Source: Candidatus Nanosynbacter lyticus (lineage in GTDB: Bacteria > Patescibacteriota > Saccharimonadia > Saccharimonadales > Saccharimonadaceae). Taken from it: a DNA stretch of 32,000 bases. Every line of letters starts with the position of its first letter. Positions within the stretch are counted from its first letter, which is position 1. The DNA lies in contig NZ_CP124549.1 in assembly GCF_030253515.1 (NCBI RefSeq), positions 270,001 through 302,000 of the forward strand, written 5' to 3'. The notes under the pieces are model-generated. The model was not told the origin of the DNA and searched no databases. It saw only the letters and a list, made by a program, of their open reading frames with translations. The position numbers and the translations under genes are program-made. Shown here one piece after another: positions 7,190 to 20,244 of this stretch.

Positions 7190-7211
7190 GTTGTCAAATG
7201 CTTGCTATAAT
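7183..7211 (+). promoter_or_regulatory. perfect consensus sigma-70 promoter TTGACA-17-TATAAT
   Basis: TTGACA lies at 7183..7188, followed by a 17-nt spacer and TATAAT at 7206..7211. The -35 is part of the palindrome TTGACAtgtTGTCAA (7183..7197), whose other arm is a minus-strand TTGACA facing dprA. Confidence 0.7.
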
Positions 7212-7217
7212 CAGGAG

Positions 7218-7532
7218 CGATTGGTTAGCCGAAGTGCTAATCAAAAGCACCTTATACCCCCTATTCTAACTAATATGTTAGGTTGCGCGCAATGGCATTA
7301 AGTATTCTTACCCTCCACTTTTTGCGATTCAACGTTACGCGCATACTAACCCCTTTAACTGCCCTTTTTTGAAGGCGACCTCTGTTAAGGTGAGCACTGG
7401 ATGGTGTTGATATTACTAATCAGGCGCGGACTTTTGGAGTTTTAGTCACGACGCTTCACTGAGACGGGAGCTCGGGTGGGTTGAAGGGTAACAAAGCGCC
7501 AGGTGATGCCCACCCTTACCTGGCGCTTTTTT
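7218..7532 (+). ncRNA. candidate non-coding RNA of about 315 nt, class unknown
   Basis: It is bounded by the consensus promoter (expected transcription start near 7218) and an intrinsic terminator at 7494..7532. No ORF has a credible start. Local hairpins include GTGCTaatcaaaAGCAC (7233..7249), CTAACtaatatGTTAG (7266..7282) and TGCGCG...CGCGCA (7284..7343). The terminator loop CCCACCC/ACCCTT can pair with the upstream GGGTGGG (7474..7480) or AAGGGT (7484..7489). Confidence 0.4.
7494..7532 (+). terminator. rho-independent terminator
   Basis: AAGCGCCAGGT (7494..7504) pairs with ACCTGGCGCTT (7518..7528) in an 11-bp stem with a 13-nt loop. It ends in a run of six T (7527..7532). Confidence 0.8.
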
Positions 7533-7643
7533 AGTTGGGTTTTTGGCGTGATCTTGTAGTGTCTGAGTGAGGATTGGGTGCGAATTGGCGTGGGACGGTT
7601 TGCTAGAAAGTGAAATTTTGGTTGGATATGTCTGAGCATAATA

Positions 7644-7680: not shown

Positions 7681-8664
7681 ATGACGCAGACAATTGAGCA
7701 CGATACCTTAGTCAAATTAAGTCAAGAGCGCCCGTTGGTGTTTCGAGCGCAGGCAGCTACTGTCTTGGCACGCGTACCGCGACGATTTCGACGAGACGCG
7801 CGGGTGCTGAATCATAGCAAGCGCACAATGCACGACATGTTGACGGCGTGGCGGGACGAATGTTTGCCGAGGTTAGAGACGATCACCTCGGCGCATAATG
7901 CGACAATGTTGCAACAAGCCTTGCGGGAGGATTTGCTAGCCGAGACGTCGTCGCAGCAACAGCTGATTGCCATGATGATACCGGTGCGGCTCGAGGAGGA
8001 GCGACTGGCCTTTGCGGGGTCGCAGTTTACGTCAAGGCGAGAAAAAAAGCCGTATCGACGAACGCTGGCGTTTGCCCAGCAGCCAATTGATGTCTGTCGG
8101 CAGCAGGTTGAAGATTTTATGAGGTATGAACTGTACCGGGCGGTGCTCGGTGAGGTTGGTGTGACTGTGGTGGATAAGCAGGCCCGGGGGCTGGTGCGAT
8201 GCTGGCAGCGGCTGCGGGCTGGTCGTCAGGTTAAGAAACTGCGGCGCGAGGTAACCAGGCGCTTAGCGGCAATTGAGCGAGAAATGGTGGCGATTGAGCA
8301 GGAGCGCGGCGGCTTGGCGGCCCGGCTGTTCGGGCTGAATATTGATTATGTGACGGTACTAGCAGCGCGACAGGAGTATGAAAAGGCGCTGGGTCGGCTG
8401 AGTAAAAAAGCGGCCGAGAGCCCAGCCAAGCGGCTGGCGCTATATGAGAAAAAGACCGAAGCGATTCGCGAGGAGTATCTCGATACGGTACCGGGCGTGG
8501 CGAATTTGTCAGAGGCGCAGCGGGCGGTCAAGGAAATTGATTCGGTGCTGCTGGCGATTTTTGACCTAGACGCGACAGCACGCAACGAACTGATGAGTGC
8601 GTTCAAGCGCTACCGGATGCTGACGCGTGAGCGGGATGTGCTACGGGCGAAGCTTGAGGTGTAG
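7681..8664 (+). CDS. hypothetical Arg/Glu/Ala-rich protein, probably coiled-coil (327 aa)
   Basis: Long ORF with its own promoter. Composition and heptad-like stretches such as RRLAAIEREMVAIEQERGGLAARL suggest a coiled coil. No catalytic motif was recognised. Confidence 0.6.
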   Translation: MTQTIEHDTLVKLSQERPLVFRAQAATVLARVPRRFRRDARVLNHSKRTMHDMLTAWRDECLPRLETITSAHNATMLQQALREDLLAETSSQQQLIAMMIPVRLEEERLAFAGSQFTSRREKKPYRRTLAFAQQPIDVCRQQVEDFMRYELYRAVLGEVGVTVVDKQARGLVRCWQRLRAGRQVKKLRREVTRRLAAIEREMVAIEQERGGLAARLFGLNIDYVTVLAARQEYEKALGRLSKKAAESPAKRLALYEKKTEAIREEYLDTVPGVANLSEAQRAVKEIDSVLLAIFDLDATARNELMSAFKRYRMLTRERDVLRAKLEV

Positions 8665-8729: not shown

Positions 8730-9179
8730 TTAGGCTTGGCTCGTCGTTTCGGTTGAGCCAGGCTGCGTATCGCCAGCTGCCATGCAGGTCTGGCACACTC
8801 CTTCAAGTTCAAAGTGGTGGCGCTCGACACGGAAGTGATGGCGCTGGCCGATCAAGGCAATGAGTCGCTCTAGCTCTGGTGTCTCCAGCGGTTCGGCATT
8901 ATGACAGCGGGTGCAGTAGAGGTGGTGGTGATGTGTGATGAATGGCTCGGCGAGCTCATAACGGACTTTCCAACCGATGTGGATGGTGTTAATGACGTGG
9001 AGCTCGTGAAAGGTTTCGAGAATGCGATAGATGCTGGTGCGGTTAGTGTTCGGGCAGCGCTTGGCGATTTCGGCGATGGTCAGTGGCACGTCGATGGATT
9101 CGAGTGCCGTAAAGACTTCGCAGCGTGATTTGGTCAGACGAAGGTCGGCCCGGCGAAAGATGTCGTGTAAGGTATCCAT
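8730..9179 (-). CDS. Fur-family metal-responsive transcriptional regulator (Zur/Fur/Nur type unresolved)
   Basis: N-terminal winged helix LRLTKSRCEVFTALESIDVPLTIAEIAKRCPNTNRTSIYRILETF. A His cluster and two Cys pairs are present: HHHHLYCTRCHN...GVCQTCMAAG. The genomic context is metal-uptake genes. Confidence 0.85.
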   Translation of the reverse strand: MDTLHDIFRRADLRLTKSRCEVFTALESIDVPLTIAEIAKRCPNTNRTSIYRILETFHELHVINTIHIGWKVRYELAEPFITHHHHLYCTRCHNAEPLETPELERLIALIGQRHHFRVERHHFELEGVCQTCMAAGDTQPGSTETTSQA

Positions 9180-9246
9180 GTCGCAATTGTATCACTTATT
9201 GCGACAAAATTGCAATAAGCTACACAATGCGCCATACTGATGAGCT
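9179..9246. promoter_or_regulatory. divergent fur/NAS promoter region carrying motif copy S1 and an extra half-site (probable operator)
   Basis: Plus strand: TTGCAA(9209..9214)-17-CATACT(9233..9238), then 8 nt to ATG 9247. Minus strand: TTGCAA-18-TACAAT (reverse complement of 9186..9191), then 6 nt to ATG 9179. The palindrome CTTATTGC-N9-GCAATAAG (9195..9219) and the half-site TGTCGCAAT (9179..9187) overlap both promoters. Confidence 0.6.
9199..9218 (+). repeat. 20-bp motif copy S1 (TTGCGACAAAATTGCAATAA; 16/20 to the window consensus)
   Basis: Read directly from the sequence. It lies in the fur/NAS intergenic region. Confidence 0.8.
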
Positions 9247-10014
9247 ATGAATGAATGTATTGAACGAGTGCTGAGCTTGCCGCAGCTCACACCTTCTGAG
9301 GAAGTTAATGCGGCATTTACCGAATTAGTTGAGAAAGTGGTGGCGCATGGTAAAGAGCCGCTACTATGCGACGAGGATATTCGCCGTCAGGTGCAGCGGC
9401 GCTGCGCGGTAGCCGAGGGAGAGCTGGAACAGTACTGGTCAAGGCGTATCACAGGGGCGGATAACCCGTGGGCGGAGTTAGGAGCGTTTCCGTATCATGA
9501 AAATTATGAGGAGTTGACGCGGCGTGAGATTGGGCTACTGGGACGGACTGGGCTCCAGTTATGTAGCTCCTCGGAGGTAGCGATGATCGGTAGCGGGCCG
9601 TTGCCACTAACGGGCTGGTGGCTGCATCAATCAACGGGAGCGCGGATTACGCATGTTGATGCGTCGGACAAGGCGATTGAGTTATCACGCGGCCTTGCGG
9701 CGGCGCTTGATTGGCCGGGTGAATTTGTGACCGGTCTGGGTCAGTCGGTGGTGTTGGATGAGGGGTGGTACGATGCGATATATGTAGCGGGGCTGGCTGG
9801 CGAAACGCTGGCGGAAAAGCAAGCAATTGTTGATCATGTACGACCAGCGCTTAAACCAGATGGGCGACTGCTCGCGCGCGGGGCGTATGGGGCACGTACC
9901 CTGCTCTATCCAGGGTTTGATGCTCACGCTCTCGAGGGTGTGCGGCTGATGGAGGAATATCATCCGACAGATAACATCATTAATTCAGTCTTTGTGTATG
10001 AAGCTGCACAGTAA
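9247..10014 (+). CDS. nicotianamine synthase-like (NAS/CntL-family) SAM-dependent aminobutyryl transferase
   Basis: Motifs line up with plant and archaeal NAS: FPYHENYEELTRREIGLL (FPYxxNY), MIGSGPLPLTG (IGSGPLP), AIYVAGLAG...EKQAIVDHVRPALKPDGRLLAR, GAYGARTLLYP (GARxxLYP) and HPTDNIINSVFVYE (HPxxxViNS). Confidence 0.8.
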   Translation: MNECIERVLSLPQLTPSEEVNAAFTELVEKVVAHGKEPLLCDEDIRRQVQRRCAVAEGELEQYWSRRITGADNPWAELGAFPYHENYEELTRREIGLLGRTGLQLCSSSEVAMIGSGPLPLTGWWLHQSTGARITHVDASDKAIELSRGLAAALDWPGEFVTGLGQSVVLDEGWYDAIYVAGLAGETLAEKQAIVDHVRPALKPDGRLLARGAYGARTLLYPGFDAHALEGVRLMEEYHPTDNIINSVFVYEAAQ

Positions 10015-10030
10015 AATAACTTAGCACTAA

Positions 10031-10050
10031 TTGAGACATTGTCGCAATAA
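10031..10050 (+). repeat. 20-bp motif copy S2 (TTGAGACATTGTCGCAATAA; 19/20)
   Basis: It lies between the convergent stops of the NAS-like gene (10014) and the TIGR03943-like gene (10061). Confidence 0.8.
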
Positions 10051-10060
10051 TGATACATAG

Positions 10061-10834
10061 CTACACACCGAGGAATTCATATGGGTTGGCTGGTTCGGTG
10101 GTTGGGGTGATGGTGGGATTGGTGAGGACGTAGACGGCTTTGCCGCCGGATAGTTCACGCTTGATCTGGCCGCGCACCTGTAGCCATTGGTTGTCGCGGT
10201 AGCGCTCGGCGTCTGGGGATTTAACGAGAATGCTGATCGGGGTACTGTCGACGGCGCAGCAGCTAATGACGAAGCGCGAGAGCTCGAAGTAGCGGTTGTC
10301 GTAAAAGCCGCCTGGGTCGCGCGCCACAAAGCCGGTGACGTCAATGGTTACACCGTCAAAAAAGCTATCGTTTGGACAGTCGTCAAACGCGCTGCGCCAG
10401 CGGTTCATGGAAACGGGCTTGCCGTCAAGTGGCTCTGGCTTATCACAGCGGCCGGTGGTGCTGGTCGGCCCAGACGTGGCACGATTGGCGGCACTGGACG
10501 AGGACAGTGGGCGCGGCGGCAGGACGATGGCCAAGGTGAGGATGCCGGCGGTGATGATTGAAAGTAGAGAGATTTTACACCGTGGCTTTGCTGGACGCTC
10601 CATGGTTGCCGCGCCAGCGGAGGCGCGTCGCTTCCCTGCTAGGTTATGGCGCAGCTGTAGAACAATATCGATAAGGAGTAACATGCCACCAGCCACGGTC
10701 GCCACGACGGCGAGCAAATGGTAGCGCGGATGAATGTAAAAGCCGAGCTGGCCGCGGACGGCGATGAGGATGATGTAGCCACAGGCGAGTAGCCCGCCGC
10801 CAGCGCGCAGTAGTGGGCCGAGTTTAGCGCGCAT
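10061..10834 (-). CDS. TIGR03943/DUF1980-family putative permease subunit
   Basis: Two N-terminal transmembrane helices, a Cys-containing linker and a C-terminal domain with the family-typical SCCAVD motif (RFVISCCAVDSTPISILV). It overlaps the upstream COG0701 permease gene by 11 nt, which suggests translational coupling. Confidence 0.7.
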   Translation of the reverse strand: MRAKLGPLLRAGGGLLACGYIILIAVRGQLGFYIHPRYHLLAVVATVAGGMLLLIDIVLQLRHNLAGKRRASAGAATMERPAKPRCKISLLSIITAGILTLAIVLPPRPLSSSSAANRATSGPTSTTGRCDKPEPLDGKPVSMNRWRSAFDDCPNDSFFDGVTIDVTGFVARDPGGFYDNRYFELSRFVISCCAVDSTPISILVKSPDAERYRDNQWLQVRGQIKRELSGGKAVYVLTNPTITPTTEPANPYEFLGV

Positions 10835-11867
10835 AGAGATTGACTCCGATCCCTGCCGCGAGCGACAGACTGAAAATAATGAGCATAACCAGCAGGATAA
10901 ATCGCGGACGGAAGGTGCTTCTCATGAGGAGAATCAGTTTGATGTCGATCATCGGGCCAGTCAGCAGAAAAGCGAGGACGGAGCCATTGGTGAAGATACG
11001 GGCGTAAGCCAGCGCGAAAAACGCATCGACGCTGGAGCAGATGGAGACGACGAAGCCGAGACCGATCATGGCGATGACCGACAGGATGATGTCGCCGCCG
11101 ACGGTGTTGATGATGGAGCGCGGAACGAAGACTTGGGTGGCGGCAGCGATCATGGCGCCAAGGACCAGCATGGTGGTGAGCTGCCAGAATTCGTTGCGAG
11201 AATCAGCGAGAATGTGGCGAAAAGTTGTTGGATGACGGTCGGTGCAAGAGGCAGCAAATGACGGCTGGAGGACGTGCCTCGGGTGAATAAAGCTGACGAT
11301 CAGAGCGGTCAGCTGGACGATTAGAAAGCCAAAGCCGATGCGCCACCAGACCATGCGCGGCTCGAAACTAAAGGCGGTCATGGTGGCGATGATGGTGATC
11401 GGATTGAGGATCGGCGCGGCCAAGAGAAAGCTGATGACGTCGGCGGGCTTGAGGCCGTGCGCTAGGAGGCTGCGGGCGACTGGCACATTGCCGCATTCAC
11501 AGACTGGCAGTGCGATGCCGATGAGCGAGAGGAGGAAGCGGCGGATGAGCACGTGTTTGGGGAGGATTTTAAGTAGTCGGTCTGGTGGTAGGAAACGGCG
11601 AATGAGGGCAGAAACGATGATACCGATGATCAGAAATGGCGTGGCTTCAACAATGACGCTGCAGGTTAGCGTCAGGAAATCCTGTGCCAGCGGTGCTAGT
11701 GTCCCGGCCCATGTCTGCGGCGGATGAGCGACCAGCCAGAGGTCAATTTGTAAACCGTACTGCATGACGACAATCCCAAACAGGCCGACGATACTCCATC
11801 GGATCGCGTCGCTATGGTTTTTGAACCAGGCGCCAGCGCGCTGATATATTGTCTGTAGTGACGACAT
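10824..11867 (-). CDS. COG0701/ArsP-like (DUF318) permease, partner of the TIGR03943 protein
   Basis: 347-aa polytopic membrane protein with the CECGNVPVARSL motif (CxCGxxP) typical of this permease family. TATAAT (reverse complement of 11875..11880) lies 7 nt upstream of ATG 11867. Confidence 0.7.
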   Translation of the reverse strand: MSSLQTIYQRAGAWFKNHSDAIRWSIVGLFGIVVMQYGLQIDLWLVAHPPQTWAGTLAPLAQDFLTLTCSVIVEATPFLIIGIIVSALIRRFLPPDRLLKILPKHVLIRRFLLSLIGIALPVCECGNVPVARSLLAHGLKPADVISFLLAAPILNPITIIATMTAFSFEPRMVWWRIGFGFLIVQLTALIVSFIHPRHVLQPSFAASCTDRHPTTFRHILADSRNEFWQLTTMLVLGAMIAAATQVFVPRSIINTVGGDIILSVIAMIGLGFVVSICSSVDAFFALAYARIFTNGSVLAFLLTGPMIDIKLILLMRSTFRPRFILLVMLIIFSLSLAAGIGVNLYAR

Positions 11868-11916
11868 GATCTCTATTATACTACTCCCCGCCCAGCGTGG
11901 TATACTGAAACTTAGT

Positions 11917-13038
11917 ATGAAACATTGGCTACATTCACATCACCCATTTCGGATTTTTTGGTTTTCGGCGCTATTAACACTGGCGTTGGGCGGGCTGATT
12001 TTCGGACATTTGGGTGCGAGCGGCTTGTGGTTATTCGCGATTTTGGTGGTGCTGGAAGTGACATTTAGCTTTGATAACGCGGTGATTAACAGTAAGGTGC
12101 TGGCTGGCATGAGCCAGGTTTGGCAGAAAGTGTTTTTGACAGTTGGAATTTTCGTGGCGGTGTTCATGGTGCGGTTCGTGCTGCCGATTATCATCGTGAT
12201 GGTGGCGAGTGGCCATGGCTTCATGGAAGTGGTTGATTTGGCGCTGCACAGGCCGGCGGAATACGGTCATATCTTGCACGAGGCCTCGCCGATGATCGAT
12301 GCCTTTGGCGGCGCGTTTCTGATTATGATTGGCCTCAGTTATTTCATCGATTATAACAAGCGCGTGCACTGGATGCGGCATGTCGAGCCGTGGCTGGCTA
12401 AGGCTGGGCGGTTTGAGAATTTCAAGGTGTGTTTGATGCTGGGTGTGGCGGCGGTGCTGTACTTTACGGTTGAGCCGCCGCATCGGGCGCTGGTGCTGAT
12501 CTCGTCGGTGCTGGGGATTATACTGCACATTGGGCTGGAACTATTTGGCTCATTCTTTCACGAGGACGACGCTAAATCAGCTAAGGTCAAGACCGGCTGG
12601 GCGGCGTTTGCCAGCCTGCTCTATCTGGAGGTGCTGGATGCCAGCTTTAGCTTCGACGGCGTCATCGGCGCCTTTGCCATCACTAGCAGCGTGCTGCTGA
12701 TCGTGGCAGGCCTGGGTGCTGGGGCGATTTGGGTGCGGTCGCTGACGGTGTATTTGCTGCGGACGGGTGTGCTCGGCAAATATAAATATCTGGAAAATGG
12801 CGCGCACTGGGCGATCATGGCGCTGGGTATGATGATGATCGCCAAGCTGTTTCATCTGGAGCTGCCGGAGTGGGCGACGGGCGGTTTGGGGCTGTTGTTT
12901 GTAAGTTTGGCGGTTGGCAGCAGTATGCTGGAGGCGCGAGCGATTAATTTACAAGAGGCGGCCGCGGCGAAATTGCACCGTGCTGAGCGGCGGTTGAAAC
13001 GCGGCGCGGCGAAAATTGTGCCGCGGAAGCGACGGTAG
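11917..13038 (+). CDS. TerC/DUF475-like integral membrane protein
   Basis: Duplicated membrane motifs LEVTFSFDNAVINSKVL and LEVLDASFSFDGVIGAFAIT in a polytopic protein with a basic C-terminal tail. The start was taken at ATG 11917 (MKHWLH), with TATACT at 11901..11906 upstream. The ORF-track start at 11866 would overlap the divergent gene. Confidence 0.6.
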   Translation: MKHWLHSHHPFRIFWFSALLTLALGGLIFGHLGASGLWLFAILVVLEVTFSFDNAVINSKVLAGMSQVWQKVFLTVGIFVAVFMVRFVLPIIIVMVASGHGFMEVVDLALHRPAEYGHILHEASPMIDAFGGAFLIMIGLSYFIDYNKRVHWMRHVEPWLAKAGRFENFKVCLMLGVAAVLYFTVEPPHRALVLISSVLGIILHIGLELFGSFFHEDDAKSAKVKTGWAAFASLLYLEVLDASFSFDGVIGAFAITSSVLLIVAGLGAGAIWVRSLTVYLLRTGVLGKYKYLENGAHWAIMALGMMMIAKLFHLELPEWATGGLGLLFVSLAVGSSMLEARAINLQEAAAAKLHRAERRLKRGAAKIVPRKRR

Positions 13039-13083
13039 TTGTTGGTACTTTGGGTTTTTCGTTTCGGGCGTGAGCGTTTGCTG

Positions 13084-13103
13084 TTGCGACATTGTTGCAA
13101 TAA
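13084..13103 (+). repeat. 20-bp motif copy S3 (TTGCGACATTGTTGCAATAA; 19/20)
   Basis: It lies between the convergent stops of the TerC-like gene (13038) and pth (13157). Confidence 0.8.
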
Positions 13104-13156
13104 GAATTTATTTGGTTTAATCTCGCAGGCGTAGTGGCGTAGCGATGTGCCGGGGA

Positions 13157-13717
13157 CTAGAGCTTGACGCTGAGCGGTTCGATCGTATCGTCAAGAAATG
13201 TGCTGATCAGCTTGATCGCTTCGGGGATTGTCCAGTCGCGGAGGATTTTGTGTTCATCGTTGTTAAATTTACTAAGGACGAAATCAACATCGCCAATTTG
13301 CCGCCGCAGTAAATTGTCGGTGCCGATACGAATATGCCAGAAATCAGCGCCGATGTGAGTATGTAGCGATTTTAAGCCGTTGCTACCAGCGTCGCGGCCG
13401 CCTTTTCGGACACGGATTTTACCAAAATCAAGGTCAGTGTCATCGTGAATAATTAGTAAATCATCCAGTGCCAGTTTATAAAAATCTAAGATCGCTCGCG
13501 CGGCAATGCCGACTTCGTTATAGTATGTCGTTGGTTTGACGAGGAGGATTTTTGCTCCAGACATGTTTAATTCGGTAATATCCGCCGAGAATTTTGGCTT
13601 ATTGCTAAAATGTGCACTCTGCCCTGCCGCCAACTGGTCAATCACTAAAAAGCCAGCATTATGTCGCGTGTAAGCATACTTTTCGCCAGGATTACCAAGG
13701 GCCAGAATGACTTTCAT
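13157..13717 (-). CDS. pth: peptidyl-tRNA hydrolase
   Basis: MKVILALGNPGEKYAYTRHNAGFLVIDQLA is the GLGNPGxxYxxTRHNxGF signature. The 186-aa length is typical. Confidence 0.9.
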   Translation of the reverse strand: MKVILALGNPGEKYAYTRHNAGFLVIDQLAAGQSAHFSNKPKFSADITELNMSGAKILLVKPTTYYNEVGIAARAILDFYKLALDDLLIIHDDTDLDFGKIRVRKGGRDAGSNGLKSLHTHIGADFWHIRIGTDNLLRRQIGDVDFVLSKFNNDEHKILRDWTIPEAIKLISTFLDDTIEPLSVKL

Positions 13718-13761
13718 AGCCTTAGTATATCACCTCGGCCAGGATGACGTATAATAGATGT

Positions 13762-14730
13762 ATGGCGAAACGCGATGACGATTTGGAATTTAGTGTTAAT
13801 GCGGCGTTTGACGAAGAGCGGGCGGTCGTTGACAAGGTGCCGCTTTATTTGGTGAATGGCTCGCTGGGTGCCGGCAAGACTAGCGTGCTGGAATTCTTAT
13901 TGCAACAAAGTGACTATAAGGGCGCGCGAGTGATTGAAAATGAATATGCCAATGAAAATGTCGACGGCTATCGGCTGGAGGGATTGGCGGAGATGGTGAC
14001 GACGCTGGCTGGTGACTGTGTCTGCTGCTCGTCGAAGCATGCGCTGACGCGGATGCTGCTGGACTTTTGTCGTAATTCTCCGGCGCCAGTGTTTATCGAG
14101 GCGGCGGGTGTGGCGCGAACGATGAATTTGGTTGAGAAACTGATAAACGCACAAATCTTCAATAAGTATGAACTGATGCAGAGTTTTTACGTGATTGATG
14201 CGCACGAGATTTTGCGCGGGATTGAGCCGGCGCACGAAATTGAACTGCAAGCCGCAGACGTGATTTTGGTGACCAAGGAAGATTTGCTGAATGATAGAGA
14301 GCGAGATGAATACGAAGCAAAACGCCGCGCCCTGCCCTACGCCAAGGTTTTAAGCGCGCCGCACGGTCAGTTTGACCTCAGCAAAATCATCACGCCGTCG
14401 GGACTGCTGGCGTTTTTTGATACGTACGACGGCGAGCTGGCGGTGCCGGATAATCCGACGTACGCCGTGCTGGATGTGTCGGGTATGAATATCTCTGCAA
14501 TGGCGCTAGAAAACATGTGGCCGGAGTTGTTCAGGGCGTATGGCCTACGGCGGATGAAGGGGTGCTTTATCAGTGACAGCGGCGTGCGTCAGCATGTGGA
14601 GGCGACCGAGCAGCAGATTCAGTTAACTAGTGCCAGGCCCGAGGAAGCGGCGAAGATCGTGCTCATCGGCGAGCGAGCAGATGAAATCACGCGCGATATC
14701 TTGCAGATGCAGCTGATGATGTTTGAATAA
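13762..14730 (+). CDS. COG0523-family (CobW/ZigA/YeiR-like) metallochaperone GTPase
   Basis: Walker A GSLGAGKTS and the metal-binding CxCC motif GDCVCCSSK; a C-terminal CobW_C-like region is present. The start was taken at ATG 13762 (MAKRDD), with TATAAT at 13750..13755 six nt upstream. The ORF track starts at 13744. Confidence 0.8.
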   Translation: MAKRDDDLEFSVNAAFDEERAVVDKVPLYLVNGSLGAGKTSVLEFLLQQSDYKGARVIENEYANENVDGYRLEGLAEMVTTLAGDCVCCSSKHALTRMLLDFCRNSPAPVFIEAAGVARTMNLVEKLINAQIFNKYELMQSFYVIDAHEILRGIEPAHEIELQAADVILVTKEDLLNDRERDEYEAKRRALPYAKVLSAPHGQFDLSKIITPSGLLAFFDTYDGELAVPDNPTYAVLDVSGMNISAMALENMWPELFRAYGLRRMKGCFISDSGVRQHVEATEQQIQLTSARPEEAAKIVLIGERADEITRDILQMQLMMFE

Positions 14731-14747
14731 ATCATTCCAATGAAAAT

Positions 14748-14855
14748 AGCCCACCGAACGAGCTCAAGCTGCATGCGGGTTTATTCAACCCGAGAGATAG
14801 AAAAATCCTACCTCAATCAGATTGAGCGCATACGGCGAGCTATTTTCGGTGGGCT
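14748..14855. other. long imperfect hairpin or structured intergenic element
   Basis: AGCCCACCGAA (14748..14758) pairs with TTCGGTGGGCT (14845..14855), extended by AGCTC (14761..14765) with GAGCT (14837..14841). Two inner hairpins are present: CGGGTTtattcAACCCG and CTCAATcagATTGAG. It lies between the convergent ends of the COG0523 gene and the 95-aa gene. Confidence 0.45.
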
Positions 14856-14856
14856 G

Positions 14857-15144
14857 TTAGCCCTCTTGTGCTTCTGGAAGCATCTTGATGAGCTTCTCCG
14901 TTGTGGCCTCTGCACAGTTGGATACTGCTACGTCCATCTGTGCAAAAATATCTTCTGCGATTTCTCCTCCTGCCGCGATCGCGACAGTAAGTAGCTGTGT
15001 GAAGCGCTGCAGTTGGCGCCCCATCTCCTGTTTAACGAGCTCTTGGTCCTCTGGGTTAAGGGCCAAGAGCTTTTCTTGAACCGTCAACTGAGGCTCAAAT
15101 CTAACCCTCCCAATTTCGGGCGATGCGATCTCGATAGTCAACAT
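14857..15144 (-). CDS. hypothetical small protein (95 aa)
   Basis: ORF MLTIEIASPEIGRVRFEPQL... preceded by AAAGGAAAG about 6 nt upstream and by a promoter plus leader hairpin. An alternative 84-aa plus-strand ORF overlaps it. Confidence 0.5.
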   Translation of the reverse strand: MLTIEIASPEIGRVRFEPQLTVQEKLLALNPEDQELVKQEMGRQLQRFTQLLTVAIAAGGEIAEDIFAQMDVAVSNCAEATTEKLIKMLPEAQEG

Positions 15145-15157
15145 GACGCTTTCCTTT

Positions 15158-15212
15158 CAACAAAAAGCTCAAAGCTAAAGGGCGACTTCCGCCCTAAGAC
15201 AAAACTTTGAGC
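15158..15212 (-). terminator. terminator-like hairpin in the leader of the 95-aa gene (attenuator, or the 3' end of a very small RNA)
   Basis: The minus strand reads GCTCAAAGttttgtcttAGGGCGgaagtCGCCCTttagCTTTGAGCTTTTTGTTG, giving outer and inner stems followed by a T-run. It ends about 13 nt before the ATG at 15144. Confidence 0.6.
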
Positions 15213-15223
15213 AAAAGCTGATA

Positions 15224-15252
15224 TATATATCACTAATAGAATAAAATGTCAA
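15224..15252 (-). promoter_or_regulatory. promoter TTGACA-17-TATATA (minus strand)
   Basis: The -35 is the reverse complement of 15247..15252 and the -10 is the reverse complement of 15224..15229. Confidence 0.6.
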
Positions 15253-15270
15253 TGGATTTTGTCAAAAATG

Positions 15271-15279
15271 TGATATAAT
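15271..15279 (+). promoter_or_regulatory. extended -10 promoter TGaTATAAT (plus strand), back to back with the minus-strand promoter
   Basis: TGATATAAT lies at 15271..15279. The downstream plus-strand sequence runs about 160 nt to the hairpin at 15409..15447. Confidence 0.45.
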
Positions 15280-15408
15280 ATCTTCTCTCACCCCTGTTAT
15301 GATCATAGACAACTTTTTTATAGAAAATAGTAGCCGGTGTTTTCTGATAACAGTAACTTGGTGCAGCATGATAAGAACGGATCGGAATGTGGGTATTTCA
15401 AGAACATC

Positions 15409-15447
15409 AAAACGCCGATAAGTACATAAGTACGTCGGCGTTTTGTT
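15409..15447. terminator. bidirectional intrinsic terminator
   Basis: AAAACGCCGA...TCGGCGTTTT stem (15409..15418 with 15435..15444), with an A-run upstream and a T-run downstream. It serves the minus-strand gene ending at 15493 and any plus-strand transcript from 15280. Confidence 0.7.
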
Positions 15448-15492
15448 AGGATTCTCATAGCCTAGAGACACTTGATATCAAGCGTGTAATTG

Positions 15493-16539
15493 TTACTGGG
15501 CCTGAGATGGAAGAGGTGAGCGGTATCCACTTTGTCGCTCGCGTACTTCGTTATACCATCCTAATAGCTCTTGACCATGATCCCAGCCCCACGCTGAGTC
15601 TGGCAATAAATAACCAGTTACTGCATTAAACAATGGATCTGAGGTATTTACCCTGATATCCAATATTTTTAGGGCCTCTTCGGCAATATCTGCTACGGTT
15701 GCAGTCTCGTTATTGTTGAGATGATCTTCTATGAGCTTTGCCAATAGGAATGTGTAAGAGCTGTACATGACTCCTCTTGCCTCAAACTCACTCGTAAATG
15801 GCTCTGCTTGTATTGGGTTATCTCTGTCGCCATAGATATTAGGTGGTAGCTGCGCCGCCGCCGCTCCAGTAAGGTGTATTTCTACGTCCCAGAGTTTTCC
15901 TTTTAGCTCCTCATATTTTTCTTTTCTGTTGATAATGGTATCTGCCCGCTGAATATCATAATCATCTCCAGCATTGCGCCGAGCTTCATCTTCCCGCGCT
16001 TCAGCGGCAAGGACTTCTTCTGGTATATCGTCCAGATTTTTTATCACGAGTGGATATGTCTCTGCCATTACAGGATGCTCGCTATACGGGTCAGGAACTT
16101 CTATCTGCTGATCACGGTGTCCGCGCATAACTCGCGCCCAAGCTGCCTCTAGTTTTTCGGGATCAGAATTTTCATATACGGGAACACAAACACCACCAAA
16201 AATAAGTAGTACCGGCTGGCCTTCTTCTGGTGCTTCTGGGCCGTTACTGATAGTGTATTTGGCTATACCTACTGCATCAGAGAAAAATATTCTGGCATCA
16301 GCAAGGTCGTCGCCCAACGCAAGCAATGGGGCTTTTTCCAGCGGCCCGCTATACATTTCAGGTTCGCTAGGTTCAGGGGTGACTTCGGTATGATCGTTAG
16401 TGTCAACGGGTGTTTCTGGATCTGCCTGAACTTCTTCCTTGATACCCGCAGGATTTTCCTGAAGCGTGTCCCAGGGGGTTGCAGGATTATTTTGCTCTTT
16501 GCTCAGCATTCCCTCAGGTGGCTTTGGTATTCCTGTCAT
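15493..16539 (-). CDS. hypothetical acidic protein (348 aa) with a Pro/Glu-rich, probably disordered N-terminus
   Basis: ORF with the Shine-Dalgarno sequence GAGAGGAG 8 nt upstream and a consensus promoter. No motif was recognised. Confidence 0.6.
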   Translation of the reverse strand: MTGIPKPPEGMLSKEQNNPATPWDTLQENPAGIKEEVQADPETPVDTNDHTEVTPEPSEPEMYSGPLEKAPLLALGDDLADARIFFSDAVGIAKYTISNGPEAPEEGQPVLLIFGGVCVPVYENSDPEKLEAAWARVMRGHRDQQIEVPDPYSEHPVMAETYPLVIKNLDDIPEEVLAAEAREDEARRNAGDDYDIQRADTIINRKEKYEELKGKLWDVEIHLTGAAAAQLPPNIYGDRDNPIQAEPFTSEFEARGVMYSSYTFLLAKLIEDHLNNNETATVADIAEEALKILDIRVNTSDPLFNAVTGYLLPDSAWGWDHGQELLGWYNEVRERQSGYRSPLPSQAQ

Positions 16540-16577
16540 AGTTATAACTCCTCTCGCATGGATTTTAGTGTGCTGAG

Positions 16578-16606
16578 ATTATATCAGCGGTGTAGTACTA
16601 TGTCAA
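16578..16606 (-). promoter_or_regulatory. perfect consensus promoter TTGACA-17-TATAAT (minus strand) for the 15493..16539 gene
   Basis: The -35 is the reverse complement of 16601..16606 and the -10 is the reverse complement of 16578..16583, with a 17-nt spacer. Confidence 0.7.
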
Positions 16607-16652
16607 GGTTATGAGAATTCAGCTACAGTTATTACTACGCCGTTGAGTTGGT

Positions 16653-18197
16653 TCATTTCTTGTCAAGAACAACCAAGTGCTCAATATGCGGTGTGCGCGG
16701 GAAAAAGTTGTAGCCATGATGATGGACGATGCGGTAGTGTTGTTGGAGCAAGGCGACATCGCGGGCTTGGGTGACGGGATTGCAGCTGAGATAGAGGATG
16801 CGCGGCGGCAGCTGTTGCAACAATGTCGCAATAACGTCGGGATGCAAGCCGGCGCGCGGCGGGTCAACGATGACGATTTCCTTGCCTGTAATGTAGTCGA
16901 GAGCTTGTTCGCTGGGAGCGAGGACAGCGCGGGCGTCAGTGCGGTCAAGTTCGGTGATGTTACGCTGCATCTCGGCGACGGCGTGTTCGTTGATTTCTAC
17001 CAGTGTGACGTTGCCATCAGCAATGGTCAGGCCGATGGTGCCAACGCCAGCATAGAGGTCGATGGTTGATAATTTGACAGCTCGAATATCATCAGAAAAT
17101 AATCCGGGACCCACGTAAAGTTGCCCAGATTTTTTCTGAGATATTGCTCGCTGTTGACTATCGGTGTTATCATGTGCCGCCAACTGATCCAGCTGGCGCT
17201 CTTGGCGCGCCTTATTGTACGGTACCCATTCCCGCATATCGCATAGCGCCTGCTCGTAAACCGGGATGTTGACTTGGAAAAAGCCTTCGCAGGCGTAGCA
17301 AAATGGCACACCAAGAATGGTGTCGGTCAAGGTGGTGTTGCCGAAATGCGCTAGTTGCTCGGTGATGCGGCTGGCTGGTGAGCGCGGGTCGGAGTAGATG
17401 ACTTCCCCGCCCTGAGCCGGTAATTTGGCGGCTTCATCAGCGGTAATTATTTCGGGCAAGCGATCCTTGATATACAGCTGCCAGACGCAACTTCCTGACT
17501 GATCGCAGCGGACGAGCAAGGTCTTGAGCTGGCGAGCCGCGACGCGTTTATGGCGCAGTAAATCACGGATAGCCCGCGCCAGGTTATTGATTTCTGGGTG
17601 TGCCAAACTTGTGCCCTCGACGACCACCTTGCCCTTGCTGCCGCGACGGAAAAATGCCAAGTCAAGCGTATCAATCGATGATTCTTCACGGTCGCTATCC
17701 GCGTCTATCCCCCGGGTATCATCAGAGGATAATTCGGGACCTGAGACAATCCCAGATTTTTTCTGAGGTACCGCTCGGGATACTACCGATTCGCTGTACC
17801 AGCTAAATTCAACTTTGTTGCGATAACCATATGCGACATTGTCGCAATAAATATCAATCGCTGCTGGTAGTGTGACATTATGCAGTGTAAACGCATCATT
17901 AATCAACTGTGCCTTATACGTCTGCTCAACTTCGAGTGGAATAATCTGCCACGGGCTGGTCGACAGATAACTATCTGGGTCACGTGGCTGGATGCGGTCG
18001 GGGCTTGGCGAGATTACTTCCTCGGCGACCGCCTCGACGAAGTGCGATTTCTTTTTGGTAATGCGAACGGTGACGGTCTCGCCCGGCAGCCCGCCCCATA
18101 CGAAACATTTGCGGCCGTCAGCCAGCGTTCCTAGTGCTTGCCCGCCACCAACAATTTTCTCTAGTGTCAGCGTCTCGAAACTCTGCCGTCCCATCAA
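16653..18197 (-). CDS. TrmA/RlmD(RumA)-family RNA (uracil-5-)-methyltransferase with a TRAM domain, carrying two in-frame insertions
   Basis: TRAM-like N-terminus (GETVTVRITKKKSHFVEA), SAM motif I DLYAGVGTIG, DPPRAGL, and catalytic YLSCNP. Insertions sit around VPQKKSGIVSGPELSSDDTRG and SQKKSGQLYVGPGLFSDDIRA. The likely true start is ATG 18194, with TATAAT (reverse complement of 18202..18207) 7 nt upstream. Confidence 0.85.
   Translation of the reverse strand: MMGRQSFETLTLEKIVGGGQALGTLADGRKCFVWGGLPGETVTVRITKKKSHFVEAVAEEVISPSPDRIQPRDPDSYLSTSPWQIIPLEVEQTYKAQLINDAFTLHNVTLPAAIDIYCDNVAYGYRNKVEFSWYSESVVSRAVPQKKSGIVSGPELSSDDTRGIDADSDREESSIDTLDLAFFRRGSKGKVVVEGTSLAHPEINNLARAIRDLLRHKRVAARQLKTLLVRCDQSGSCVWQLYIKDRLPEIITADEAAKLPAQGGEVIYSDPRSPASRITEQLAHFGNTTLTDTILGVPFCYACEGFFQVNIPVYEQALCDMREWVPYNKARQERQLDQLAAHDNTDSQQRAISQKKSGQLYVGPGLFSDDIRAVKLSTIDLYAGVGTIGLTIADGNVTLVEINEHAVAEMQRNITELDRTDARAVLAPSEQALDYITGKEIVIVDPPRAGLHPDVIATLLQQLPPRILYLSCNPVTQARDVALLQQHYRIVHHHGYNFFPRTPHIEHLVVLDKK
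16814..16833 (+). repeat. 20-bp motif copy S5 (TTGCAACAATGTCGCAATAA; 18/20), inside the methyltransferase CDS
   Basis: It encodes DVIATLLQQ on the minus strand. Confidence 0.8.
17087..17151 (+). repeat. palindromic repeat element copy A, inside the methyltransferase CDS
   Basis: tatcaTCAGAAAATAATCCGGGACCcacgtaaagttgCCCAGATTTTTTCTGAgatattgctcgc. The arms TCAGAAAATAATCCGGG and CCCAGATTTTTTCTGA are complementary apart from one bulge and one mismatch. It is translated as SQKKSGQLYVGPGLFSDD. Confidence 0.85.
17717..17778 (+). repeat. palindromic repeat element copy B, inside the methyltransferase CDS
   Basis: tatcaTCAGAGGATAATTCGGGACCtgagacaatCCCAGATTTTTTCTGAggtaccgctcgg. Against copy A the left arm matches at 17/20 and the right arm at 17/17, and the centre differs. 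It is translated as PQKKSGIVSGPELSSDD. Confidence 0.85.
17831..17850 (+). repeat. 20-bp motif copy S4 (ATGCGACATTGTCGCAATAA; 19/20; contains the perfect 15-bp palindrome TGCGACATTGTCGCA), inside the methyltransferase CDS
   Basis: It encodes DIYCDNVAYG on the minus strand. Confidence 0.8.
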
Positions 18198-18212: not shown

Positions 18213-18686
18213 TTAGAAGTTGCACTCTGGCACGCCGCCAAACCAGCCGTTTTGCATATTGCGGCCAGTGCGGCAGGTGGTGCCATCTGAGAGCGGCACC
18301 TTTATGGCGTAGCGGGTCGGCACGACGCTGGAAGCGTGGGTCGTGTCAGTGGCTGCGAGATACCAATAATCGCGGCCTTCGTGGTCTTTCGGCAGCTGCT
18401 TGATGTAGCGTGGAATGAGAAGTGCGCCGAGCTCGCCGCCATTACAAATCTTCATATTAGCGGTGTTATAAATGGTGCAGGCGCTCGTCGGCCATGGATA
18501 TTCGCCGTTGTCCGAACGATATTTCTCGATCGCTTCCTTGAGCATTGAGATATTTGACTTGGTTTCGTTGTCGCGAGCGGTGTTGTAGGCATTGCGCCAG
18601 ACGAGGCCGCCTAAGGTAGCGAGGATCGCGATGACCACGATAATAATGATAATTTCGACGATAGTAAAGCCATACTGCTTATGCAT
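18213..18686 (-). CDS. type IV pilin/pseudopilin with a prepilin N-terminal cleavage/methylation domain
   Basis: MHKQYG|FTIVEIIIIIVVIAILATLGG shows the G/FTxxE prepilin peptidase site with Glu at +5. Cys pairs lie in the C-terminal part. TACAAT (reverse complement of 18693..18698) lies 6 nt upstream of the ATG. Confidence 0.85.
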   Translation of the reverse strand: MHKQYGFTIVEIIIIIVVIAILATLGGLVWRNAYNTARDNETKSNISMLKEAIEKYRSDNGEYPWPTSACTIYNTANMKICNGGELGALLIPRYIKQLPKDHEGRDYWYLAATDTTHASSVVPTRYAIKVPLSDGTTCRTGRNMQNGWFGGVPECNF

Positions 18687-18765: not shown

Positions 18766-18840
18766 TGGGCCGTCGCCAAGTGGTAAGGCACCAGGTTTTG
18801 GTCCTGGCATTCGGGGGTTCGAATCCCTCCGGCCCAGCCA
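18766..18840 (+). tRNA. tRNA-Gln (anticodon UUG), CCA encoded
   Basis: TGGGCCG tc GCCAAGTGGTAAGGCA CCAGG TTTTGGT CCTGG cattc GGGGGTTCGAATCCCTC CGGCCCA G CCA. It has a 7-bp acceptor stem, a T-loop GGTTCGAATCC and an anticodon loop TT-TTG-GT. It closely parallels E. coli tRNA-Gln. Confidence 0.9.
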
Positions 18841-20218: not shown

Positions 20219-20244
20219 TTACAACTCGTGAGGCTCCAAAACTT

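What the first reader, a model, noticed from the sequence alone, without database searches (positions are those of the whole stretch)
9179..17850. Five same-orientation copies of a 20-bp near-palindrome clustered in 8.7 kb, two of them inside a CDS
The motif is TTGCGACATTGTCGCAATAA. Its copies, scored against the window consensus by hand count, are:
- 9199..9218 (16/20)
- 10031..10050 (19/20)
- 13084..13103 (19/20)
- 16814..16833 (18/20)
- 17831..17850 (19/20; contains the perfect 15-bp palindrome TGCGACATTGTCGCA)

All five have the GCAATAA extension on the same side. None was seen in the remaining ~23 kb.

Copy 1, together with an extra half-site TGTCGCAAT at 9179..9187, overlaps both divergent promoters of the Fur-family regulator and the NAS-like gene. 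That fits an auto-regulated Fur/Zur operator.

The other copies do not sit where operators usually do. Two lie between convergent gene ends and two lie inside the methyltransferase coding sequence, including the best palindrome.

Alternatives worth testing:
- a binding-site cluster for a chromosome-organising protein; the core GCGACAnTGTCGC resembles the enterobacterial matS shape GTGACRNYGTCAC, and parS-type sites also occur within genes
- a DNA-uptake-sequence-like over-represented word, given that dprA and a type IV pilin are in this window
Basis: partly seen in the sequence, partly recalled or inferred. Interest (0 to 1): 0.7.

Follow-up and report, generated by a model that had tools for sequence, protein, structure and literature searches.

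The report
Metal-regulator binding sites clustered around its gene
The repeated 20-bp near-palindrome is the DNA-binding site of the neighbouring Fur-family metal-sensing repressor in a tiny oral Saccharibacteria (TM7) genome; the motif is ordinary in kind, but most copies lie inside genes or at gene ends rather than in promoters.

Summary
The core TTGCRACAWTGTYGCAA occurs six times between 7898 and 17847 with at most 2 mismatches; the sixth copy (7898-7914) was missed. Shuffled sequence gave none.

The window comes from an oral Saccharibacteria (TM7) genome. The copy at 9196-9218 overlaps the promoters of the Fur-family gene and the divergent NAS-like gene. The same operator sits at the same distance from the -10 box in relatives down to 56% protein identity.

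The exact 20-mer recurs in at least 120 genomes, against about 9 expected by chance. Outside TM7, 33 of 70 hits lie just upstream of a Fur-like or COG0523 gene. The motif is therefore a Fur-family operator with a zinc-type (Zur-like) regulon. Its geometry resembles the Streptomyces Nur box.

The matS/parS and uptake-sequence readings are rejected.

The non-promoter copies are real and clade-conserved. Both methyltransferase copies occur in all 68 orthologues sampled without reference to the motif, but not in a 60%-identity sister clade. Intragenic boxes in six different genes share one codon phase, which suggests selection on the DNA. Their role is inferred only: roadblock or auxiliary operator.

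This is a new member of a known kind, of moderate interest.

The parts
9196..9218 (.). Box 2: full 23-bp palindrome TTATTGCGACAAAATTGCAATAA. It is the operator shared by the divergent fur and NAS-like promoters.
   Evidence: It overlaps the fur -35 (TTGCAA, 9215-9210) and ends 4 nt before the -10 (TACAAT, 9191-9186). The geometry is identical in L001, L002 and TM7x L004, which were chosen by Fur protein only.
9179..9187 (.). Extra half-site (TTGCGACAT on the fur strand) overlapping the fur start codon.
   Evidence: A similar AGCGACATG is present in L001, but it is not conserved in L002 or TM7x. Its status is uncertain.
7898..7914 (.).
   Evidence: A box lies at a similar position in the orthologous gene of L001, L014 and L089.
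10031..10047 (.). Box 3: TTGAGACATTGTCGCAA, in the 46-nt gap between the convergent NAS-like and DUF1980 genes.
   Evidence: It is identical in the closest relative, L060. Its flank CTAATTGARACATTGTYGCAA matches the box inside the second cobW gene of L002 and L042. It is therefore probably a relic kept after loss of cobW2 and the 181-aa gene (inference).
13084..13100 (.). Box 4: TTGCGACATTGTTGCAA, in the 118-nt gap between the convergent DUF475/TerC and pth genes.
   Evidence: The exact 20-mer is at this position in at least 23 TM7 species genomes. No promoter and no convincing RNA structure was found around it.
16815..16831 (.). Box 5: TTGCAACAATGTCGCAA, inside the methyltransferase CDS. Codons ATT GCG ACA TTG TTG CAA encode IATLLQ.
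   Evidence: It is present in every orthologue of at least about 67% identity in the sample chosen without reference to the motif, and absent from the 60% clade.
17831..17847 (.). Box 6: ATGCGACATTGTCGCAA, containing the perfect 15-mer, inside the methyltransferase CDS. It encodes YCDNVA.
   Evidence: It is present in nearly all orthologues of at least about 70% identity, with paired G-to-A and C-to-T changes that keep the symmetry. It is absent from the 60% clade.
8730..9179 (-). Fur-family regulator gene, the presumed binding protein.
   Evidence: PF01475, E = 2.6e-15. It has HHHH plus two CxxC motifs. Homologues are Saccharibacteria Fur-family proteins. The recognition-helix motif N/D-R-T/A-T/S-I/V-Y-R is shared with box-adjacent Fur-like proteins of other phyla.
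9247..10014 (+). Nicotianamine-synthase-like gene, divergent from fur and sharing box 2.
   Evidence: PF03059, E = 1.5e-44.
10061..11867 (-). ArsP_1 permease plus DUF1980/TIGR03943 subunit, a putative metal permease operon. Its promoter carries no box.
   Evidence: In relatives a box lies inside ArsP (L014, L089) or DUF1980 (L002, L012, TM7x).
11917..13038 (+). DUF475/TerC-family membrane protein. The start at 11917 is inferred.
13157..13717 (-). pth (peptidyl-tRNA hydrolase), convergent with DUF475. It lies between box 4 and cobW.
13744..14730 (+). CobW/COG0523-type GTPase. It has no box at its own promoter.
16653..18194 (-). RlmD/TrmA-like RNA methyltransferase carrying boxes 5 and 6.

Best explanation
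The motif is the operator ("box") of the Fur-family metal-sensing repressor encoded at 8730-9179. The full site is the 23-bp palindrome TTATTGCRACAWTGTYGCAATAA. The genome is an oral Saccharibacteria (TM7) genome.

Shown by sequence and comparison:
- Box 2 (9196-9218) covers the -35 and spacer of the fur promoter and also the divergent NAS-like promoter. A metal-loaded dimer bound there would repress both genes, which is classical autoregulation.
- The same palindrome is the promoter operator of related Fur-like genes and of COG0523 metallochaperone genes in other phyla.

Inferred:
- The regulon is Zur-like (zinc limitation). This rests on COG0523, the NAS-like metallophore gene and a metal permease. 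The protein lacks the cysteine ligand typical of Zur, so iron, manganese, nickel or cobalt sensing is not excluded.
- The other five boxes are further high-affinity sites for the same protein. This genome has almost no intergenic space: divergent promoter pairs share 26-50 nt. The boxes appear to have been written into coding sequence or left at gene ends. There they most plausibly act during elongation, as metal-dependent roadblocks, or as auxiliary operators that raise local repressor occupancy.
- One concrete possibility for box 4: it blocks read-through from DUF475, across antisense pth, into cobW.

No step of the roadblock or auxiliary role is shown here.
For: **The motif is non-random.**
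- Shuffles gave 0 matches to the 20-mer and a mean of 1.2, maximum 5, against 12 observed for the 15-mer.
- My estimate is about 2e-8 per position for 1 or fewer mismatches, or about 0.02 sites per Mb.

**The operator position is conserved in loci chosen by Fur protein alone.** The window, L001 (69% identity), L002 (58%) and TM7x L004 (56%) all have TTATTGCAnnTTTGTYGCAATAA, then 4 nt, then the -10 box, then a near-leaderless ATG.

**It sits next to Fur-like and COG0523 genes outside TM7.**
- In 70 non-TM7 loci, 29 boxes lie 400 nt or less (mostly under 70 nt) upstream of the only Fur-like gene in the locus. Five lie upstream of COG0523 genes. In total 33 lie upstream of one or the other.
- Pfam confirms FUR, cobW plus CobW_C, and Pyr_redox_2 for these neighbours.

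**The box-adjacent Fur-like proteins share key residues.** Proteins from Bacteroidota, Moraniibacteriota and TM7 (24-33% identity) share R47, Y51 and R52 in the recognition helix.

**The geometry has a precedent.** It matches the footprinted Nur box tTGCaa-N5-ttGCAA (PMC2691836).

**The boxes are rare and local.**
- None with 2 or fewer mismatches lies elsewhere in the window.
- All 130 boxes in 472 kb of methyltransferase loci lie inside that gene.

**Evidence that the non-promoter boxes are selected.**
- Both methyltransferase boxes are in all 68 orthologues of about 67-99% identity. A 60% sister clade instead encodes VFTDGVEFN and DVVRRLLETA at these positions.
- Intragenic boxes in six different genes (unk327, methyltransferase, cobW2, a 179-aa gene, DUF1980, ArsP) all use one codon phase, encoding [A/E/D]-T-[M/L/K]-[L/S]-Q.
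- Several of these hosts are expected Zur-type targets whose promoters lack a box.
- Box 3 appears to have survived deletion of its host gene.

**Precedent for intragenic boxes.** B. subtilis Zur binds 35 intragenic sites, 16 of them with a Zur box. These have a 3-10-fold cis-repressive effect of unresolved mechanism (PMC4324032).
Against: - No binding, expression or metal data exist.
- Within the box-bearing clade the methyltransferase boxes are not exceptionally conserved relative to the rest of the gene. Diversity of the 17-nt window ranks 84 of 1268 for box 5 and 327 of 1268 for box 6. Synonymous diversity is around the 10th percentile. Extra constraint is therefore not demonstrated.
- Box 4 lies in a block (11897-14731) that is 87-89% identical across species whose flanks are about 70% identical. 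Its wide conservation may partly reflect recent gene flow.
- Boxes just downstream of stop codons (boxes 3 and 4) cannot block expression of the upstream genes. No promoter was found next to boxes 3-6 (and manual inspection).
- The protein has a Fur-like 'YEL' glutamate where Zur proteins carry a cysteine ligand: L76 aligns with C76 of M. tuberculosis FurB. The ligand identity is from my own knowledge. Zinc is therefore not established.
- The methyltransferase is not an obvious metal-regulon member.
Confidence: 0.8

Rival explanations
1. Only box 2 is functional. The other five are bound weakly or not at all, or are bound without consequence. They persist because these lineages diverged recently, because of gene flow, and because of ordinary coding constraint.
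For: - Conservation of boxes 5 and 6 within their clade is not exceptional against the rest of the gene.
- Box 4 lies in a mosaic high-identity block.
- No promoter is associated with boxes 3-6.
- In B. subtilis the role of intragenic Zur boxes is also unresolved.
Against: - Near-perfect 17-mers are expected about 0.02 times per Mb, yet five occur within 10 kb.
- Creating them required several amino-acid changes relative to the sister clade.
- Six genes carry boxes in the same codon phase.
- Box 3 appears retained after its host gene was deleted.
- The box position within the ArsP/DUF1980 operon moves between lineages, but a box is kept.
Confidence: 0.2
2. The sites form a binding cluster for a chromosome-organising protein (matS/MatP-like or parS/ParB-like) that marks a replication landmark.
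For:
- Sites occur inside genes, as parS sites do.
- Cumulative GC skew peaks near 25 kb.
Against: - The same palindrome is a promoter element next to Fur-like and COG0523 genes in several phyla.
- The methyltransferase boxes are on a different contig from the fur cluster in the same genome (L045 versus L042).
- No MatP or ParB gene was seen among the window genes scanned.
- The GC skew shows no inflection at the cluster.
Confidence: 0.02
3. The motif is a DNA-uptake-sequence-like over-represented word used by the competence machinery (dprA and a pilin are in the window).
For: dprA (6290-7189) and a type IV pilin (18213-18686) are in the window.
Against: - Uptake sequences occur roughly once per kb across a genome (my own knowledge).
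- Here there are none with 2 or fewer mismatches in the other roughly 22 kb of the window.
- There are none in about 350 kb of flanks.
- Each large TM7 record returned only 1-3 exact copies.
- The motif is shared with non-competent phyla at promoters.
Confidence: 0.01
4. The copies at gene ends (boxes 3 and 4) act at the RNA level. The palindrome would form a hairpin in 3' untranslated regions, serving as a terminator, a stabiliser or a small-RNA element.
For: - The palindrome can form a 7-10-bp stem with a 3-nt loop.
- Box 4 was flagged as weakly terminator-like.
- The whole DUF475/pth gap is conserved.
Against: - No U-tract follows the stem.
- The RNAalifold covariation term is only -1.33 kcal/mol, and the palindrome pairs never vary.
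- Rfam found nothing.
- The identical sequence is a DNA operator elsewhere.
Confidence: 0.05

Closest known systems
Zur boxes and Zur regulons (Fur-family zinc uptake regulators of Bacillus, Actinobacteria and Proteobacteria)
   Same: - A palindromic operator overlaps the promoter of an autoregulated Fur-family gene.
- The regulon content includes COG0523 GTPases, a metallophore (NAS-like) gene and a metal permease.
- Intragenic boxes also occur in B. subtilis.
   Different: - Established Zur boxes are described as AT-rich palindromes (PMC3087516). This one has a GC-containing TTGCRA half-site.
- The protein lacks the Zur-type cysteine ligand.
- Most boxes here are not in promoters.
Nur box of Streptomyces coelicolor Nur (nickel-responsive Fur homologue): tTGCaa-N5-ttGCAA
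   Same: - The same 17-bp 6-5-6 geometry and the same outer hexamers TTGCAA.
- Nur (3eyy) is among the closest solved relatives, at E = 1.6e-11.
   Different: - The central five bases here are conserved (CAWTG), and a further TTA/TAA extension makes the site 23 bp.
- The neighbouring genes are COG0523 and NAS-like, not sodF or nik.
- The protein is no closer to Nur than to C. jejuni Fur or M. tuberculosis FurB.
Roadblock repression by CodY and CcpA, and auxiliary intragenic operators such as lac O2
   Same: High-affinity repressor sites lie inside transcribed regions, downstream of promoters.
   Different: Nothing about elongation block or looping was tested here. Boxes 3 and 4 lie after stop codons. 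The comparison rests on my own knowledge plus the references cited.
matS/MatP, parS/ParB and DNA uptake sequences
   Same: Short palindromes or words that can lie inside genes.
   Different: The distribution, genomic context and cross-phylum promoter association all disagree.

Membership tests
Fur-family repressor operator (Zur/Fur/Nur-type box) | An inverted-repeat site of about 15-23 bp suited to a dimeric winged-helix protein | tested here: met
   The site is the 23-bp palindrome TTATTGCRACAWTGTYGCAATAA with a single central base.
Fur-family repressor operator (Zur/Fur/Nur-type box) | The site overlaps the promoter of the regulator's own gene or of target genes | tested here: met
   Box 2 covers the fur -35 and spacer and ends 4 nt before the -10 box. 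This is conserved in three relatives chosen independently of the motif. It is not met for boxes 1 and 3-6.
Fur-family repressor operator (Zur/Fur/Nur-type box) | The motif co-occurs with a Fur-family gene across taxa | tested here: met
   In 29 of 70 non-TM7 loci the box lies 400 nt or less upstream of a Fur-like gene. Pfam FUR is confirmed. The recognition-helix residues are shared.
Fur-family repressor operator (Zur/Fur/Nur-type box) | Metal-dependent binding of the protein to the site | not testable with these tools
   This needs EMSA, footprinting or DAP-seq with and without metals.
Zur (zinc-specific) regulon | Boxes lie upstream of zinc-limitation genes (COG0523, zinc uptake, zinc-independent paralogues) | tested here: met
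   The box lies 5-206 nt upstream of cobW plus CobW_C genes in five loci of other phyla. In TM7 it is associated with NAS-like, cobW2 and ArsP/DUF1980 genes. No ribosomal paralogues or znuABC genes were seen.
Zur (zinc-specific) regulon | The regulatory zinc site includes a cysteine ligand (D/H-C-H-H type) | tested here: not met
   The position aligned to C76 of M. tuberculosis FurB is L76. The protein keeps a Fur-like 'YEL' glutamate. The ligand identities are from my own knowledge.
Nur box (6-5-6, tTGCaa-N5-ttGCAA) | TTGCAA hexamers separated by five non-conserved bases, with nickel-responsive sodF/nik targets | tested here: inconclusive
   The hexamers and spacing match. However, the central bases are conserved here and the targets differ.
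matS/MatP Ter organiser | GTGACRNYGTCAC sites spread over a large Ter domain, with MatP present | tested here: not met
   The sites cluster within 10 kb around fur. The motif is a promoter element in other phyla. No MatP was seen among the scanned window proteins.
DNA uptake sequence | Hundreds to thousands of copies per genome, roughly evenly spread | tested here: not met
   There are no copies in the other roughly 22 kb of the window and none in about 350 kb of flanks. Each large TM7 record had 1-3 exact copies.

The most novel reading that the evidence does not exclude
In ultra-compact Saccharibacteria genomes, a Fur-family metalloregulator may control much of its regulon from boxes written into coding sequences and gene ends, not from promoter operators.
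- The boxes recur in the one codon phase that encodes a harmless [A/E/D]-T-[M/L]-L-Q peptide.
- They would act as metal-dependent roadblocks to elongation or read-through.
- One example would be switching cobW on through read-through from DUF475 across antisense pth.

If so, operators migrating into genes would be a general solution to the lack of intergenic space.
Probability: 0.25. Interest if true: 0.6.

Novelty: new member of a known kind. Interest (0 to 1): 0.4.

Why it matters
- It gives a concrete and testable operator motif for an uncharacterised Fur subfamily. The subfamily is shared by Saccharibacteria, Moraniibacteriota and many Bacteroidota, and has the recognition-helix signature D/N-R-T/A-T-V/I-Y-R. 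I found no description of this motif in the searchable literature.
- It gives a first view of a metal regulon in TM7, an epibiotic group of the human mouth that is hard to study experimentally.
- The recurrent in-phase embedding of boxes in coding sequence is a clean natural case for asking whether intragenic repressor sites regulate elongation. That question was left open for B. subtilis Zur.

Tried and rejected
- **Internal or antisense promoters at boxes 3-6.** No consistent -10 box lies at the distance seen in the fur promoter. The gene downstream of the methyltransferase has its own perfect TTGACA-17-TATAAT promoter without a box. The antisense ORF 17880-18134, just downstream of box 6, is broken by stop codons in close relatives.
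- **Structured RNA or terminator at box 4.** Rfam found only tRNA-Gln in the window. RNAalifold gave weak covariation.
- **Extra synonymous constraint on the methyltransferase boxes.** The test was not significant: the sample was too shallow, with gene-wide nucleotide diversity of 0.14.
- **Boxes as boundaries of recombination blocks.** The high-identity block 11897-14731 does not end at boxes.
- **Assigning the regulator to a named subfamily.** All NCBIfam equivalog scores are far below their cut-offs. PDB relatives are equidistant among Fur, Nur and Zur.
- **Exact look-up of the window's Fur protein.** It is not on record.
- **Literature search for the motif string.** It returned only unrelated eukaryotic papers.
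- **A 3-mismatch 'box' in L001 at 9104.** This is a by-product of the CobW Walker A motif GKTTLL, so I did not count 3-mismatch hits.

Full report
**1. The observation**

The 15-bp core gave 12 strand hits against a shuffle mean of 1.2 and a maximum of 5.

The five reported copies are real. The fourth aligns one base to the right, at 16815-16834. The perfect 15-mer is at 17832-17846. A sixth copy, ATGCGACAATGTTGCAA at 7898-7914, lies just left of the reported span.

Scored against the degenerate core TTGCRACAWTGTYGCAA, the six sites have 0-2 mismatches. Nothing else in the 32 kb has fewer than 3.

**2. Gene context and organism**

Pfam and NCBIfam scans give this order:

| Coordinates | Strand | Gene |
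|---|---|---|
| 6290-7189 | - | dprA |
| 7681-8664 | + | unknown ORF (box 1 at +217) |
| 8730-9179 | - | Fur-family regulator |
| 9247-10014 | + | nicotianamine-synthase-like gene |
| 10061-10834 | - | DUF1980/TIGR03943 |
| 10824-11867 | - | ArsP_1 permease |
| about 11917-13038 | + | DUF475/TerC |
| 13157-13717 | - | pth |
| 13744-14730 | + | CobW/COG0523-type GTPase |
| 15493-16539 | - | unknown ORF |
| 16653-18194 | - | RlmD/TrmA-like methyltransferase (boxes 5 and 6) |
| 18213-18686 | - | type IV pilin |

Homologues of the regulator are Saccharibacteria (TM7) proteins, including that of Nanosynbacter lyticus TM7x. The closest DNA relatives are oral Saccharibacteria assemblies, among them oral taxon 488.

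**3. Box 2 is a conserved autoregulatory operator**

I fetched loci through the Fur protein only, so the choice was not biased by the motif. These were L001 (69% identity), L002 (58%) and TM7x L003/L004 (56%).

All carry the same structure upstream of fur: TTATTGCAnnTTTGTYGCAATAA, then 4 nt, then a -10 hexamer (TATAAT, TATACT or TAAAAT; TACAAT in the window), then a near-leaderless ATG. The promoter scan independently calls TTGCAA-18-TACAAT at 9215-9186.

In the window the same box also lies over the divergent NAS-like promoter. Synteny of the whole metal cluster is conserved.

**4. The motif belongs to a Fur subfamily that crosses phyla**

My estimate of the chance expectation is about 9. About 50 of the loci are Saccharibacteria. 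The rest are mostly Bacteroidota, with Moraniibacteriota and others.

Outside TM7 the site is usually the full palindrome TTATTGCAACATTGTTGCAATAA in an intergenic region.
- I used an HMM built from the box-adjacent Fur-like proteins. Of 70 non-TM7 loci, 29 have the box 400 nt or less (mostly under 70 nt) upstream of the locus's only Fur-like gene.
- Five have it upstream of COG0523 genes, and 33 have one or the other.
- Pfam confirms FUR, cobW plus CobW_C, and a divergent Pyr_redox_2 oxidoreductase.
- These proteins are only 24-33% identical to the window protein. They still share R47, Y51 and R52 in the recognition helix (motif D/N-R-T/A-T/S-I/V-Y-R), the HxH motif and both CxxC motifs.

Adjacency of a motif to the gene of one transcription-factor family across phyla is the standard signature of a cognate, autoregulated operator.

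**5. Which metal**

The regulon content points to a Zur-like zinc-limitation response: COG0523, a NAS-like gene and an ArsP/DUF1980 permease.

The sequence does not settle it.
- NCBIfam places the protein in no equivalog.
- Solved relatives are equidistant: C. jejuni Fur 2e-12, S. coelicolor Nur 1.6e-11, M. tuberculosis FurB 1.5e-10.
- The residue aligned with the FurB cysteine ligand is a leucine, and a Fur-like 'YEL' glutamate is kept (ligand identities are from my own knowledge).

The box has the 6-5-6 geometry and TTGCAA hexamers of the footprinted Nur box (PMC2691836). Unlike the Nur box, its central bases are conserved.

No paper in the searchable library prints this motif or discusses a TM7 Fur or Zur.

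**6. The non-promoter boxes are real and recurrent**

In TM7 genomes the exact 20-mer recurs at two places:
- the DUF475/pth gap, in at least 23 species (box 4);
- about 170 nt before the methyltransferase stop codon, in at least 25 species (box 5). This holds even when that gene is on a different contig from fur.

Those loci were selected by the motif. I therefore drew a sample without reference to it: 80 methyltransferase loci from metagenomes, found by protein.
- Both boxes are present in nearly all 68 orthologues of about 67-99% identity. The one clear exception is the most divergent, L189, which has lost box 6.
- Box 6 shows paired G-to-A and C-to-T changes that keep the symmetry.
- Both boxes are absent from the 60%-identity clade, which encodes VFTDGVEFN and DVVRRLLETA instead of IYCDNVAYG and DVIATLLQQL.
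- All 130 boxes in these 472 kb lie inside the methyltransferase gene.

Other relatives carry boxes inside ArsP (L014, L089), DUF1980 (L002, L012, TM7x), the second cobW gene, a 179-aa gene and the unknown ORF next to fur.

All of these use the same codon phase, xxT-GCR/GAA/GAC-ACA-WTG-TYG-CAA, which encodes [A/E/D]-T-[M/L/K]-[L/S]-Q. Only box 6 differs. Six genes out of seven sharing one of three phases has a probability of about 0.02 by my estimate. This fits a DNA motif imposed on proteins in the one frame that is harmless.

Box 3 shares its unusual flank (CTAATTGARAC) with the cobW2-internal box of relatives. It seems to have been kept when cobW2 and the next gene were lost (inference).

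**7. Limits on the non-promoter boxes**

- Within the box-bearing clade the methyltransferase boxes are not significantly more conserved than the rest of the gene (ranks 84 and 327 of 1268).
- Box 4 lies in a block (11897-14731) that is 87-89% identical between species whose flanks are about 70% identical. Its ubiquity may partly reflect gene flow.
- I found no promoter beside boxes 3-6, no conserved antisense ORF and no convincing RNA structure.
- The promoters of ArsP/DUF475 and pth/cobW have no box. They are packed into about 50 and 26 nt respectively.

**8. Mechanism**

Shown: box 2 is positioned to repress fur and the NAS-like gene.

Inferred: the other boxes bind the same protein. They act as metal-dependent roadblocks or auxiliary operators, because there is no room for gene-specific operators in these promoters.

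There is precedent. B. subtilis Zur occupies 35 intragenic sites, 16 of them with Zur boxes. These have a 3-10-fold cis-repressive effect of unresolved mechanism, and roadblock repression is established for CodY and CcpA (PMC4324032).

A specific and untested idea for box 4: it gates read-through from DUF475 across antisense pth into cobW.

**9. Rejected readings**

- **matS/parS-like organiser.** This is contradicted by the promoter association in other phyla and by the unlinked methyltransferase boxes.
- **Uptake-sequence-like word.** This is contradicted by the motif's rarity.
- **'Same orientation'.** This is an artefact of the degenerate left arm. In coding copies it also reflects the need to avoid an in-frame TAA.

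**10. Verdict**

The operator reading of copy 1 is supported and now generalised to a cross-phylum Fur subfamily. The exotic alternatives are rejected.

This is a new member of a known kind. One feature is genuinely curious: boxes are recurrently written in phase into coding sequence, and their function needs experiments.

Noticed in passing
window 17076-17160 and 17706-17790 (methyltransferase CDS); window 3767-3812 (865-aa topoisomerase-like ORF 2382-4979); L002 16037-16082 (topA): A hairpin-forming element of about 50-85 nt is inserted in frame in unrelated genes. In the methyltransferase it adds peptides such as SQKKSG...GP.L.SDD.R. This resembles the Rickettsia palindromic elements that insert into ORFs.
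   Followed up: partly
window 11897-14731 (DUF475-pth-cobW); also the dprA block 6301-7544: Divergence is mosaic. These blocks are 87-89% identical at the DNA level to L002, L023 and L089 (DUF475 is 96-97% identical in protein). Adjacent ArsP, NAS and fur are only about 70% (50-68% in protein). This suggests recent gene flow between TM7 species.
   Followed up: partly
window 13718-13743 and about 11868-11916: Divergent gene pairs (pth/cobW and ArsP/DUF475) share intergenic regions of only 26 and about 50 nt. Their -10 boxes sit back to back and their start codons are near-leaderless.
   Followed up: partly
window 10015-10060, compared with L002 8651-8667 and L042 3533-3549: Box 3 with its left flank looks like the only surviving piece of a second cobW gene. 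That gene is present, together with a 181-aa gene, after NAS in relatives.
   Followed up: partly
window 18766-18840 and 18926-22485: tRNA-Gln is followed by a low-GC stretch (39-40% against about 52% elsewhere). The stretch encodes an unknown 430-aa ORF and a KAP-family P-loop NTPase. It is probably an island integrated next to the tRNA.
   Followed up: no
window 16578-16606 (- strand): A perfect consensus promoter, TTGACA-17-TATAAT with an upstream TG, drives the unknown 348-aa gene downstream of the methyltransferase.
   Followed up: no
L001 9104-9120: The CobW Walker A motif GAGKTTLL (GGT AAA ACG ACA TTG TTG) produces a 3-mismatch pseudo-box purely through coding. This is a caution against counting weak hits.
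   Followed up: yes
L061 1328-1350, L063 4050-4072, L069 2127-2146: Further perfect TM7 boxes lie just after a DHH/DHHA1 (NrnA-like) gene. In L061 and L063 they are 108 nt upstream of an unknown 316-aa gene, which may be another regulon member.
   Followed up: partly
L064 7108-7665, L066 5091-5651, L112 7071-7634, L054 4140-4700: In several Bacteroidota and Proteobacteria loci the box precedes a protein of about 186 aa with no Pfam match. These may be an uncharacterised member of the same regulon; I did not compare the four proteins with each other.
   Followed up: no
window 14740-14994: An 84-aa ORF directly after cobW has 8 cysteines and no family match. It may be spurious or a small metal-binding protein.
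   Followed up: no
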